From NCBI GenBank assembly GCA_012295275.1, contig CM022673.1, forward strand, positions 23,684,001 to 23,748,000: a stretch of 64,000 nucleotides of DNA, written 5' to 3'. The notes beneath the pieces were generated by a model, which did not search any database, had not been told where the DNA came from, and worked only from the letters and a program-made list of their open reading frames with translations. Each line of letters opens with the position of its first letter. The stretch's first letter is position 1. A program made the translations under genes and the position numbers. Positions 641-56,800 of the stretch are shown one piece after another. The DNA is from Chrysomallon squamiferum. Lineage: Eukaryota; Animalia; Mollusca.

Positions 641-3600
641 CTAAAAAAAAAAAAAAAAAAAAAAAAAACAATCAGCTAATTCAAAAACTCTTCATAAAAT
701 AATGTGTGTCTCTGTTTAGAGATAGTTTTTAGATATAACAAATACCTCTCAATAAGACTGTATCTGAGTAGGAAGGTAGTTTTTAGATAAAACAAATTCC
801 TCTCAATAAGACTGTATCTAAGTATGAAGGTAATTTTTAGATATAACAAATACCTCTCAATAAGACTGTATCTGAGTAGGAAGGTAGTTTTTAGATTAAC
901 AAATACCTCTGAGTAAGACTGTATCTGTGTACAAAGGTAATTTTTAGATATAACAAATTCCTCTCAATAAGACTGTATCTGAGTAGGAAGGTAGTTTTTA
1001 GATATAACAAATACCTCTGAGTAAGACTGTATCTGTGTACAAAGGTAATTTTTAGATATAACAAGATCCTCTCAATAAGACTGTATCTGTGTAGGAAGGT
1101 AATTTTTAGATATAACAAATACCTCTCAATAAGACTGTATCTGTGTACAAAGGTAGTTTTTAGATATAAAAAATACCTCTCAATAAGACTGTATCTGAGT
1201 ATATAACAAATACCTCTCTATAAAACTGTAACTGAGTATATAACAAATACCTCTCTATAAAAATGTAACTGATAAAAAATGTATCTGTAACTGAATATAT
1301 AAAAAATACTCTCTATAAAAACTGTATCTGAGTATATAACAAATAATAAAACTGTAAAATATATAAAAAAATACTCTCTATAAAAATGTATCTGATAAAA
1401 CAAATACCTCTCTATAAAACTGTAACTGAGTATATAACAAATACCTCTCTATAAAACTGTATCTGAGTATATAACAAATACCTCTCTATAAAACTGTAAC
1501 TGAGTATATAACAAATACCTCTCTATAAAACTGTATCTGAGTATATAACAAATACCTCTCTATAAAACTGTAACTGAGTATATAACAAATACCTCTGTAT
1601 AAAAATGTATCTGAGTATATAACAAATACCTCTCTATAAAACTGTATCTGAGTATATAACAAATACCTCTCTATAAAAATGTATCTCTATAAAACTGTAT
1701 CTGAGTATATAACAAATACCTCTCTATAAAACTGTATCTGAGCACGGAGGTAGTTCTGCATCATCAGTTTGTAGTCTTTGACTCGCTCATGCTGGAAATG
1801 GTTGATTTCTGCCAGTGTTCCATATGATATGACCTCCGCTTTTTGGGTGACACTCTGTACATCAGACTCTGACATTTTCTGTTCCTCCAGCAGTTTCTTA
1901 CACTCTTTTGCTTTACCTGTCGCTCCCTGAAATTACATTTTTAAAAACAAGAGAAATCACCATGCTGATTATCATTTGTAATGTATAGTAAAAACATTTT
2001 AAAAGTATACACTGGAATGTGTAACTTTTGTTTGTTATAATGGAGAATTAACACTTAAATTATTAAAAGTGAAATTTATGTAAAGTACAAATAAAACTAA
2101 CAGTCAGGCATTGTAAATAGATCAGCTTTATCCAGCATCTTCTATTTTAATCAGTTTTATCACAAAGTTCAAAATTTAATTTTTTTAACATGTTATCTAT
2201 TAAAAAAAAAAATCAAGAAAATCAAACTTGGTAACTTGAGAAAAAAAAACTAACGAAGTTGTGTTTCTAAAAGGTAAAGCATACTGTCAAATGATATCAC
2301 TAACATATTTAAGATTTTCAGTGTCAAGATGGTGTTTTAAACTGGAGAAAGGAAAATGTTAAATAAATAAAAATAACATATTTAAAATGAAATATCAAAC
2401 ATTATTTTACAAAACATAAACTGGATGTTTGTGTGCTGAGAATGGATTTGATGATGTTATGCAAAAACTTGTCTGTAGTAAATACTAAAATTACCTCATG
2501 AATTTTGAGGACGTCAGGGAATGTCTGCAGTATTCCCTTGTACTCCCCGAGACAGTCCATCAGTGGGGTAATGTCTTTGGCTGGCTGTTGTTCATACATC
2601 TTACCTATCTCATTGTACGTGTCACCTGTCCTGTCAATAGCTGCCGTCAAGTTACGAGAATCTGTCATAACAACACATCTTTTTATAGACTCAGTATTTT
2701 AACAATCTATTTAAAAATCTGTCATAACACATCTCTTTATAGACTCAGTATTTTAACAATCTATTTAAAAATCTGTCATAACAACAACACATCTCTTTAT
2801 ATACTCAGTATTTTAACAATCTATTTAAAAATCTGTCATAACAACAATACATCTCTTTATATACTCAGTATTTTAACAATCTATTTAAAAATCTGTCATA
2901 ACAACAATACATCTCTTTATATACTTAGTATTTTAACAATTTATTTAAAAATCTGTCATAACACATCTCTTTGTATACTCAGTATTTTAACAATCTATTT
3001 AAAAATCTGTCATAACAACAATACATCTCTTTATATACTTAGTAATTTAACAATTTATTTAAAAATCTGTCATAACACATCTCTTTATATACTCAGTATT
3101 TTAACAATCTATTTAAAAATCTGTCATAACACATCTCTTTTAGAGACTCAGTATTTTAACAATCTATTTAAAAATCTGTTGTAACAACACATCTCTTTAT
3201 ATACTCAGTATTTTAAAAATCTGTTGTAACAACACATGTCATAACAACAACACATCTCTTTTGTATACTCAGTATTTTAACAATCTATTTAAAAATCTGT
3301 CATAACAATAACATCTCTTTATATACTCAGTATTTTAACAATCTATTTAAAAATCTGTCATAACAACAACACATTTTAACTTTATTTAAAAATCTATCAT
3401 AACACATCTCTTTAGAGACTCAGTATTTTAACAATTTATTTAAAAATCTGCCATAACAACAACACATCTTTTTACACTCAGTATTTTAAAAATCTATTTA
3501 AAAATCTATTAAAAAATCTGTCATAAAAACACATCTCTTTATACATTCAGTATTTAACAATATATTGAACATTTGTATTTTTAGTTATATAAAATAAAAT

Positions 3601-53800: not shown

Positions 53801-56800
53801 AATAAACCACAGAATTTTGCACATATTATGAAACAAAACACTTTGTTACCAAAGTAATTAACATATATATATATTGATTGATTGATTTATTTATTTATTT
53901 ACTATTAAATAACAGTTTTTTCGATAATAAAAACAAAACTATGATTTTATTATCAAACAAATCCAGTAGTAAAAGGAAATAATAATAATAGTAATAATAA
54001 TAATAATAATAATAATAATAATAATAATAATAATAATAATAATAATAATAATAATGATACTAAAACAAGAATCATAGGATAGACATACACTGTGTAAAGT
54101 AATAACTGTGGGTGTTTTTCAGGTCGCTGGATATTTGGAAGTATCATGTGTCAAGGCTTTGCATTTATCAGTCATCTGATGGTGGGCAGCGCAGCGTGGC
54201 TCATCGCACTACTGGGCCTCGAAAGGTAAATCAGTTTTACATAAATTAATTAACTCTTTTAATAGTCATACAGTTTTACATAAATTAATTGACTCAATAG
54301 TTTACAGTTTTACATAAATTAATTAACTCTTTTAATAGTCATACAGTTTTACATAAATTAATTAACTCTTTTACAGCGTCACACAAGTCAGTTAATAGTC
54401 ATACAGTTTTACATAAATTAATTAACTCTTTTAACAGTCAAACAGTTTTACATAAATTAATTAACTCTTTCTACAGCTTCACAGAAGTCAGTTAACTCTT
54501 TTAATAGTCATACTGTTTTACATAAATTAATTAACTATTTCAACAGTCATACAGGTTTACTTAACTCTTTTATCAGTCAAGCCTTTACAAAATCAATCAA
54601 GTCTTTTAACAGTCATACAGGTTTACAAATCAATCAAGTCTTTTAAATTAAATAAATCTATTTTAACAGTCATACAGGTTTACATAAATTAATTAACTTT
54701 TTAACAGTAATACACGTTTTAAATTCAAAACAGACATCATAAATTAATTTACTCTTTTAAAAGTCATACAGGTTTACATAAATTGATTTACTTTATTAAC
54801 AATCATACAGGTTTACATCAGTGAATTCACTCTTAAATAAAAAACTATCTCCTGTGAGTTGTCCTTTTAAATAAAACATGCTACAGTGAGTGGATGTTTC
54901 AAATAAAAATTTCTGTTGTGGTTTTAACTAAAACTTGCTACTGAAAACACAGAACACGTGGAATGTAGCATGTTGGTTGTCCACGATCGATACCGGACTT
55001 TGTCTAACAAAACGAAAGATGATTGTCAGAGAAACTCATCCCAGGCTGTAATGACGACAGCGCGATTAAGTTACATACATGCTGTTCTGTAATACGCCAT
55101 TACTGTCAGAACAGCAACTTTCACAGCAACACCGAAGCTAAACATTGCGATAATTGGGTTGGCAGGAGCAGTCATTGAGTTGTTTCATTTAGCAATTAAT
55201 AATAATAATAATAATAATAATAATAATAAATAATAATAATAAACAGCACAAAAAAAAAAGAAAAAAGAAGGTGAAGAAGAGAAAAAACGGTTATGATATC
55301 TGATTATGAAACTGAACGTTGATACAAATTCAGATGTTTCATACATTACATGTTGTATATTCAAGCTGCTTTAATATACTTTTGTGACAGTAACTCACTT
55401 CAGTTTTTCATCAAAGTGAATAGTTCTGAAACAACTGTTCTCAGAATTATTAATAATAGCTTACTGGACATTTCTGTTAACCATTGTCACGGGATACATT
55501 ATAAAGCTTCAGACTGGACATTAATAGACTCGAGAACTTGCTGTGATACACTTCACAGTAAGAAGAGAAAACTAACGTGTAAATAGTCCAGCCAGTAAAC
55601 ATCCTCAAACTGTCAATGTCATTTCTGTTGACACTTATTTGTAACATAGTACTTCACCTCGAAAACCTGTCTTCTGTTAAACCAAATACTGCATATTTTT
55701 TATTTGTAACGAAGTACTTCACCTCGAAAACCTGTCTTCTGTTAAACTAAATACTGCATGTTTTTTATTTGTAACGTAGTACTTCACCTCGCAGTCCTGT
55801 CTTCTGTTAAACCAAATACTGCATGTTTTTTATTTGTAACGTAGTACTTCACCTGGTAGTCCTGTCTTGTGTTAAACTGCATGTTTTTTTTGTAACGTAG
55901 TACTTCACCTCGCAAACCTGTCTTCTGTTAAACTAAATACTGCATGTTTTTTTTTTGTAACGTAGTACTTCACCTCGCAAACCTGTCTTCTGTTAAACCA
56001 AATACTGCATGTTTTTTATTTGTAACGTAGTACTTCACCTCGCAAACCTGTCTTCTGTTAAACCAAATACTGCATGTTTTTTATTTGTAACGTAGTACTT
56101 CACCTCGCAAACCTGTCTTCTGTTAAACTAAATACTGCATGTTTTTTATTTGTAACGTAGTACTTCACCTGGTAGTCCTGTCTTGTTTAAACTGCATGTT
56201 TTTTATTTGTAACATAGTACTTCACCTCGCAGTCCTGTCTTCTGTTAAACCAAATACTGCATGTTTTTTATTTTTAACGTCTTACTTCACCTCGAAAACC
56301 TGTCTTCTGTTAAACCAAATACTGCATATTTTTTATTTGTAACGAAGTACTTCACCTCGAAAACCAGTCTTCTGTTAAACTAAATACTGCATGTTTTTTA
56401 TTTGTAACGTAGTACTTCACCTCGCAGTCCTGTCTTCTGTTAAACCAAATACTGCATGTTTTTTATTTGTAACGTAGTACTTCACCTGGTAGTCCTGTCT
56501 TGTGTTAAACTGCATGTTTTTTATTTGTAACGTAGTACTTCACCTCGCAAACCTGTCTTCTGTTAAACTAAATATTGCATGTTTTTTATTTGTAACGTAG
56601 TACTTCACCTCGCAAACCTGTCTTCTGTTAAACCAAATACTGCATGTTTTTTATTTGTAACGTAGTACTTCACCTGGTAGTCCTGTCTTCTGTTAAACCA
56701 AATACTGCATGTTTTTTATTTGTAACGTAGTACTTCACCTGGTAGTCCTGTCTTGTGTTAAACTGCATATTTTTTATTTGTAACGTAGTACTTCACCTCG

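What the first reader, a model, noticed from the sequence alone, without database searches (positions are those of the whole stretch)
715..54830. Recurring splice-junction-seeded tandem arrays (decoy splice-site arrays) across three unrelated genes
Seen: at least 7 intronic arrays have a unit that copies the adjacent exon-intron junction: sorting nexin donors at 1720, 6085, 7908 and 9023, acceptor at 2661; ABCB8 acceptors at 39408 and 39619. About 8 more begin or end within ~25 nt of a junction or carry weaker junction copies (6216, 8037, 30491, 31560, 33787, 36953, 50882, 54225). Each array has its own unrelated sequence and extends only into the intron. Copies range from intact GT/AG (best preserved near the exon in the 6085 array) to mutated (gt>ct, ag>aa, ag>tg). 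Inference: a junction-focused duplication process (slippage or R-loop repair at splice sites) expands introns from their ends, and selection then silences the decoys. It could also drive splice-site sliding or alternative splicing/NMD. A simpler alternative is that random duplications survive only when they leave the exon intact. I do not know of this being described as a genome-wide system, but cannot check the literature.
Basis: partly seen in the sequence, partly recalled or inferred. Interest (0 to 1): 0.85.

Follow-up and report, generated by a model that had tools for sequence, protein, structure and literature searches.

The report
Snail splice-junction "mirage" minisatellites
Several introns of three genes in what is probably a snail hold head-to-tail copies of their own exon edge with its splice signal; this repeat type is already known from lancelets and some human genes, most copies keep the signal intact, and they are likely harmless by-products of random local duplication because the exon-side site is likely the one used.

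Summary
The arrays are real; the idea of a new system is not supported. Four sorting-nexin donors (1720, 6085, 7908, 9023) have 4-21 tandem copies of 13-24 exon bases plus GT in the intron; 4 of 65 junctions score 24-38, 0 of 2016 swapped controls reach 17. Acceptor 2661 carries only 3 exon bases; 39408, 39619 and 50882 are decayed. This is the "mirage" minisatellite of amphioxus (PMC3087553) and the F7/CBS-type repeat of humans (PMC1557585); the scan noted it before in at least 23 genomes and elsewhere in this one. Silencing is not seen: GT/AG mismatch 13/122 versus 249/2294 elsewhere, 49 of 61 copies intact, nearest copies best preserved. Junction excess is modest: 5 observed versus 2.8-3.8 expected within introns (P 0.11-0.31) or 1.6-1.9 across introns (P 0.02-0.03), in a window that is 24% minisatellite. 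RNA contigs splice ABCB8 at the real sites; no reads were laid on the sorting nexin. Best reading: microhomology duplication filtered by exon integrity, tolerated through first-site choice.

The parts
593..22450 (-). Sorting nexin gene (SH3-PX-BAR, SNX9/18/33 type), 15 coding exons, 563 aa
   Evidence: All 14 introns GT-AG, no internal stop, 477 of 563 residues identical to P0121 (Gigantopelta aegis lst-4-like) with one gap position
723..1719 (-). Donor array at 1720: exon-side block of 37-base units (22 exon + 15 intron bases) and a distal block of 54-base units (36 exon + 18 intron bases)
   Evidence: 21 copies, 17 with GT; 16 are identical to the real donor over 9 bases; 54-base unit bounded by a 5-base microhomology
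2662..3566 (-). Acceptor array at 2661: 54-60-base units, intron end plus AG plus 3 exon-matching bases
   Evidence: 15 copies, 14 with AG
5482..6084 (-). Donor array at 6085: 49-50-base units with at least 17 exon bases
   Evidence: 11 copies, 8 with GT; identity falls with distance, rho -0.83
7535..7907 (-). Donor array at 7908: 35-base units with about 13 exon bases
   Evidence: 10 copies, 8 with GT; the copy at +105 would give an in-frame, stop-free extension
8847..9022 (-). Donor array at 9023: 41-base units with 24 exon bases
   Evidence: 4 copies, 2 GT and 2 CT
28686..40024 (+). ABCB8-like half transporter gene, 18 coding exons
   Evidence: 727 codons without internal stop; one exon's best solved-structure hit is human ABCB8, E 3.5e-11; last five introns confirmed by RNA contigs
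39186..39385 (+). Decayed acceptor array at 39408: 30-base units with about 13 exon-like bases; weaker copies up to 426 bases from the junction
   Evidence: 7 copies, 0 with AG, 65-75% identity
39505..39616 (+). Array ending at acceptor 39619: 24-base units copying the intron end, no exon base
   Evidence: 4 copies, all TG; spanned without gaps by DNA contigs of runs X1 and X2
50768..54225 (+). Two exons (about 50768-50882 and 54123-54225) of a probable class A GPCR; the model is partial
   Evidence: Weak Pfam 7tm_1 hit, E 0.0055, below the curated cut-off; no homologue found
50910..51044 (+). Decayed donor array at 50882: 32-base units with about 7 exon bases
   Evidence: 4 copies, 1 with GT
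54232..54842 (+). 39-base array whose unit starts at the intron's first base after donor 54225, no clear exon base
   Evidence: Alignment; fails the exon-copy test
33813..34193 (+). 23-base intronic array 25 bases from donor 33787, no junction copy
35639..36938 (+). 26-base intronic array ending 14 bases before acceptor 36953, no junction copy

Best explanation
These introns hold tandem copies of their own exon edge, likely made by the same microhomology-guided local duplication that likely built the window's other minisatellites and likely tolerated because splicing takes the site nearest the exon. Step 1 (inferred, one clear case): a 20-60-base piece is duplicated between short matching words. 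Step 2 (logical): if the piece straddles a junction, the exon-side copy stays the real site and all others fall in the intron; exonic duplications are purged. Step 3 (inferred): the array grows by unequal exchange or slippage, often from the exon-side unit, pushing older units inward. Step 4 (shown): copies decay without special loss of GT/AG. Step 5 (shown for ABCB8, taken from human F7 for donors): the real site is used; most decoy products would carry a stop.
For: The window is 24% minisatellite, with arrays also far from modelled junctions. With arrays collapsed, the host introns were short (88-352 bases at the four donors), so a straddling seed is expected 2.8-3.8 times among 23 arrays against 5 seen, P 0.11-0.31. 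The 54-base unit at 1720 equals the distance between two identical 5-base words, one in the exon and one in the intron. Two unit lengths are stacked at 1720, the more exon-like one next to the exon. Identity to the junction falls with distance in 3 of 5 arrays (P 0.011, 0.002, 0.013). GT/AG mismatch 13/122 versus 249/2294; base-matched 13 observed versus 16.4 expected, P 0.60; GT/AG intact in 27 of 29 exon-near and 22 of 32 distal copies. RNA contigs X8 and X9 join five ABCB8 introns at the real sites, none at a copy. Human F7 pseudo-donors are functional but not used because the most upstream donor is chosen (PMC1557585, abstract and introduction). Of 35 near-real-strength decoys only 1 is in frame and stop-free.
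Against: Pure chance does not cover everything: across all 32 introns 5 of 22 seeds straddle a junction against 1.6-1.9 expected (P 0.018-0.034), and counting the three decayed arrays gives 8 (P 0.001-0.012 within introns, P at most 0.0003 across introns); 13 of 23 arrays lie within 50 bases of a junction against 8.4 expected, P 0.007. Both ABCB8 acceptor arrays lost AG in all 11 copies, as a founder filter would predict. First-site scanning explains donors, not the 14 intact AG copies upstream of 2661, which need exon definition (inference). Microhomology is exact in one array only; at 9023 it is off by 3 bases. No reads were laid on the five strongest arrays.
Confidence: 0.7

Rival explanations
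1. A junction-focused mutational process (transcription- or splicing-coupled breaks, R-loop repair) seeds duplications preferentially at exon edges and expands introns from their ends.
For: About 3-fold excess under the across-intron null, stronger with the decayed arrays; 13 of 23 arrays within 50 bases; two seeds at donor 1720; no array in 22451-28685; three units end within 0-3 bases of a junction (2661, 39619, 54225); arrays make up 31% of the length of 29 short introns.
Against: Not significant under the within-intron null for the 5 clear cases; the strict and loose classes were set by eye after seeing alignments; 9 arrays lie in two stretches without modelled junctions; exon-anchored copies may simply be easier to recognise and slower to be deleted.
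Confidence: 0.17
2. Selection silences decoy splice sites after the arrays form, or lets only pre-silenced units expand.
For: AG lost in all 7 copies at 39408 and all 4 at 39619; GT lost in 3 of 4 at 50882; unmatched distinct variants 9 at 10 core sites versus 96 at 189 others.
Against: G and C positions change about twice as often as A and T anywhere in the units; base-matched P 0.60 (5 arrays) and 0.37 (8 arrays); exon-near copies, the most dangerous, are the most intact; 14 of 15 AG copies intact at 2661.
Confidence: 0.06
3. The arrays are used: decoys give alternative isoforms or tune expression through nonsense-mediated decay, or let splice sites slide.
For: 16 copies at 1720 equal the real donor over 9 bases; one copy at 7908 (+105) is in frame and stop-free. 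Two pseudo-sites are used in human CBS and 6-16 (PMC1557585 introduction).
Against: No decoy joint in RNA contigs for the ABCB8 3' part (contigs drop rare forms). The protein is colinear with its Gigantopelta relative, so no site has slid. Units are unrelated to each other.
Confidence: 0.05
4. The arrays are assembly artefacts.
For: Copy numbers of the long arrays were not checked against reads.
Against: Units differ from each other in ordered patterns; DNA contigs from two studies span 39505-39616 without a gap (X1 may be the assembly's own sample).
Confidence: 0.02

Closest known systems
Amphioxus 'mirage' minisatellites (Adh3, globins BflGb6 and BflGb9, troponin C, PGBD5); PMC3087553 section 16 read, PMC3902484 one passage read
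   Same: Tandem units that span an exon-intron boundary, at 5' or 3' ends; many but not all keep GT/AG; each locus has its own unit; unit size 10-160 bases there, 24-60 here; regular splicing reported.
   Different: Here in a probable gastropod, at five junctions of one gene. Length instability and somatic mosaicism, reported for amphioxus, were not tested here. The original Adh3 paper (PMC117041) is not held.
Human minisatellites whose first monomer spans a donor site: F7 IVS7 (37 bases, 5-9 copies), CBS intron 13, 6-16, lamin B2, PDGF; PMC1557585 abstract and introduction read
   Same: Identical pseudo-donors repeated downstream of the real donor; in F7 only the most upstream is used.
   Different: Scattered single loci in human; here 4 of 14 donors of one gene, plus acceptor arrays, which the sections read do not treat.
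Intron gain by tandem duplication of proto-splice sites (Rogers model; seen only as cited in PMC3087553)
   Same: Same raw event, a tandem duplication that includes splice signals.
   Different: No new intron or slid site here; the protein stays colinear with its relative.

Membership tests
Mirage minisatellite | Tandem array of a minisatellite-sized unit | tested here: met
   Periods 24-60, 4-21 copies
Mirage minisatellite | Unit spans an exon-intron boundary | tested here: met
   Met for 1720, 6085, 7908, 9023; weak for 39408 and 50882; 2661 has 3 exon bases; not met for 39619 and 54225
Mirage minisatellite | Many but not all copies keep GT or AG | tested here: met
   49 of 61 in the five clear arrays; 1 of 15 in the three decayed ones
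Mirage minisatellite | Regular splicing at the authentic site | tested here: inconclusive
   Shown for acceptors 39408 and 39619 by RNA contigs of one study; no reads on the sorting nexin arrays
Mirage minisatellite | Length variation between alleles or cells | tested here: inconclusive
   39505-39616 has the same length in X1 and X2; contigs cannot count units in longer arrays
F7-type pseudo-donor minisatellite | Pseudo-donors identical to the real donor | tested here: met
   16, 2, 5 and 2 identical 9-base donors at 1720, 6085, 7908, 9023
F7-type pseudo-donor minisatellite | Most upstream donor chosen by oriented scanning | not testable with these tools
   Needs minigene mutagenesis
   13/122 versus 249/2294; base-matched P 0.60 and 0.37

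The most novel reading that the evidence does not exclude
Exon edges act as a ratchet for intron growth in this snail: junction-straddling units are seeded about three times more often than chance, are re-copied from the selection-protected exon-side unit, push older units inward and stay unsilenced because first-site choice makes them free, so mirage arrays are a main, directional source of intron length genome-wide, with a stricter filter at acceptors than at donors.
Probability: 0.3. Interest if true: 0.45.

Novelty: new member of a known kind. Interest (0 to 1): 0.22.

Why it matters
It extends a repeat class described in lancelets and single human genes to a probable gastropod, at high local density. 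Up to 16 exact copies of a donor behind the real one make a natural test of first-site choice outside mammals, and the intact acceptor array at 2661 tests exon definition. It is not a new system. A genome-wide count would say how much intron length such arrays supply; searches found no such survey in the library held, which lacks most subscription journals.

Tried and rejected
No whole genome is held, so no genome-wide test. A naive null that slides the full-length array inside today's intron (13 of 23 within 50 bases versus 7.15, P 0.0004) was replaced by seed models on collapsed introns. An ABCB8 exon search returned only distant ABCB proteins; the GPCR exon found no homologue, so that gene model is partial and unmodelled exons may exist in 40025-64000. 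Viral and prokaryote collections hold no sorting nexin relative. Metagenome loci: 57 of 80 had intron-like gaps; of 224 approximate junction ends one scored 17 and one 16, none reached the 24-38 of the window's four donors; these are distant animals in short-read assemblies that tend to break at arrays, so this is weak. The unmatched excess of distinct variants at GT/AG vanished after base matching. Pfam did not name the broken reading frames in the 15978-17970 insertion. The original mirage paper is not held.
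Full report
Setting. The window is AT-rich animal DNA (GC 0.25-0.42). 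The best relative of a sorting nexin exon is Gigantopelta aegis lst-4-like, 81% identical, ahead of a bivalve and a limpet (3 hits of 19 candidates), so the source is probably a gastropod (inference). No whole genome is held. I modelled the sorting nexin (15 exons, 563 aa, 477 identical to P0121, all introns GT-AG), the ABCB8-like gene (18 exons, 727 codons, no internal stop; best solved-structure hit of one exon is human ABCB8) and two exons of a probable GPCR (weak 7tm_1 hit). That gives 32 introns and 65 junctions.

Observation. For each junction I scored copies of 25 exon plus 15 intron bases in its own intron and in the 31-32 other introns. Four of 65 scored 24-38 (donors 1720, 6085, 7908, 9023); 0 of 2016 foreign comparisons reached 17; 30491, 50882 and 39408 scored 13-14, a level reached by 1.3% of foreign comparisons. 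Alignments show 21, 11, 10 and 4 copies at the four donors; 15 copies at acceptor 2661 with only 3 exon-matching bases; 7 decayed copies at 39408 (all without AG); 4 at 39619 (no exon base, all TG); 4 at 50882 (1 with GT). The 33 arrays share no sequence except two halves of one split array. DNA contigs of X1 and X2 (two studies; X1 may be the assembly's sample) span 39505-39616 without a gap, and cover 39186-39385 in pieces.

Is it more than chance? The copies are. Their position is only modestly so. TRF finds 33 arrays covering 24% of the window; 23 lie in the modelled introns, 10 outside. Collapsing each array to one unit leaves short host introns (155, 88, 127 and 352 bases at the four donors). 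A seed placed at random in its own collapsed intron straddles a junction 2.8-3.8 times among 23; 5 clear cases give P 0.11-0.31, 8 with the decayed ones give P 0.001-0.012; 13 of 23 lie within 50 bases against 8.4 (P 0.007), 8 within 25 against 6.4 (P 0.23). Spreading seeds over all introns gives 1.6-1.9 expected among 22 (P 0.018-0.034 for 5; at most 0.0003 for 8); over the 29 introns under 2 kb, 2.0-2.3 among 15 (P 0.04-0.07 for 5). The clear and decayed classes were set by eye, and the sample is one window. That arrays extend only into the intron is a logical result of duplicating a junction: the exon-side copy remains the real site.

Are decoys silenced? In the five clear arrays GT/AG differs from the real junction in 13 of 122 cells, other positions in 249 of 2294; 49 of 61 copies are intact. 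G and C positions change about twice as often as A and T; matched for base, 13 cells are seen against 16.4 expected (P 0.60), and with all eight arrays 27 against 23.2 (P 0.37). Exon-near halves are intact in 27 of 29 copies, distal halves in 22 of 32. Copies are related, so cells are not independent; distinct variants give 9 against 6.6 (P 0.21). The fixed loss of AG at 39408 and 39619 could be a founder filter, but 2661 keeps 14 of 15.

How they form. At 1720 a distal block of 54-base units carries 36 exon bases, and the unit length equals the distance between two identical 5-base words in exon and intron, the usual mark of slippage or microhomology-mediated repair (established knowledge, recalled). 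A block of 37-base units, closer to today's exon sequence, sits between it and the exon. Identity to the junction falls with distance at 1720, 6085 and 2661 (rho -0.54, -0.83, -0.63), not at 7908 or 9023. I infer growth from the exon-side unit. Arrays supply 31% of the length of the 29 short introns.

How they are tolerated. RNA contigs X8 and X9 (one study) join the last five ABCB8 introns at the modelled GT-AG sites, including 39408 and 39619, with no joint at a copy; contigs drop rare forms, and these two arrays have no intact AG. No reads were laid on the sorting nexin, so use of its intact decoys is open; its protein is colinear with the relative, so no site has slid. Of 35 decoys scoring near the real site on a matrix from the window's own junctions, 31 would add a stop inside the extension, 3 shift the frame and 1 (7908, +105) is in frame and open. 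In human F7, identical pseudo-donors are functional yet unused because the most upstream site is chosen (PMC1557585 abstract); carrying this to a snail is inference, and for the acceptor array exon definition is my inference.

What is known. [quoted passage not shown] PMC3902484 (one passage) adds PGBD5 and troponin C. PMC1557585 (abstract and introduction) lists human F7, CBS, 6-16, lamin B2 and PDGF. Supplements were not read. Searches gave no mollusc case or genome-wide survey by their listings (hits not read); one search gave three papers. Earlier notes of this scan hold the same words in 57 findings from at least 23 genomes, and one on another piece of this genome; these are unchecked notes, used as leads only; the F7 lead came from one of them. 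Distant animal orthologues from metagenomes show no comparable array (0 of 224 ends at 24 or more), a weak control.

Verdict. A real, dense example of mirage minisatellites in a probable gastropod: new member of a known kind. The silencing step is not supported, a junction bias of modest size is not excluded. Interest 0.22.

Noticed in passing
window 15970-17978: A 2-kb insertion with terminal inverted repeats, an 8-base target-site duplication and broken transposase-like reading frames splits one 18-base array in two. The hAT label is recalled; Pfam gave no hit.
   Followed up: partly
window 15824-18909: The 18-base unit of that array reads like a pyrimidine tract plus CAG on the + strand, antisense to the sorting nexin; the array starts just after an acceptor-like AG and ends at a GT. 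It may be an acceptor array of an unmodelled antisense transcript.
   Followed up: no
window 25473-26684: Single-exon innexin gene, 403 aa (Pfam E 4e-47), in a stretch without any minisatellite.
   Followed up: partly
window 10000-10620 and 12220-12835: By eye, two near-identical copies of a sequence of about 600 bases in opposite orientation flank a reverse-complement region in sorting nexin intron 3, suggesting a large inverted-repeat element.
   Followed up: no
window 55635-57037 and 59872-62260: Long, young arrays (65-base x22, 61-base x36, 89-94% matches) with no modelled junction nearby.
   Followed up: no
L062:2599-2685 and L065:2356-2484: In another animal's sorting nexin gene a 42-base array about 26 bases before the acceptor has 2.1 units in one locus and 3.1 in the other, at the intron that matches the window's 6215 acceptor; it holds no junction copy.
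   Followed up: partly
window 53502-53930: By eye, a duplication of about 250 bases that includes an AAT microsatellite, upstream of the GPCR acceptor 54123.
   Followed up: no
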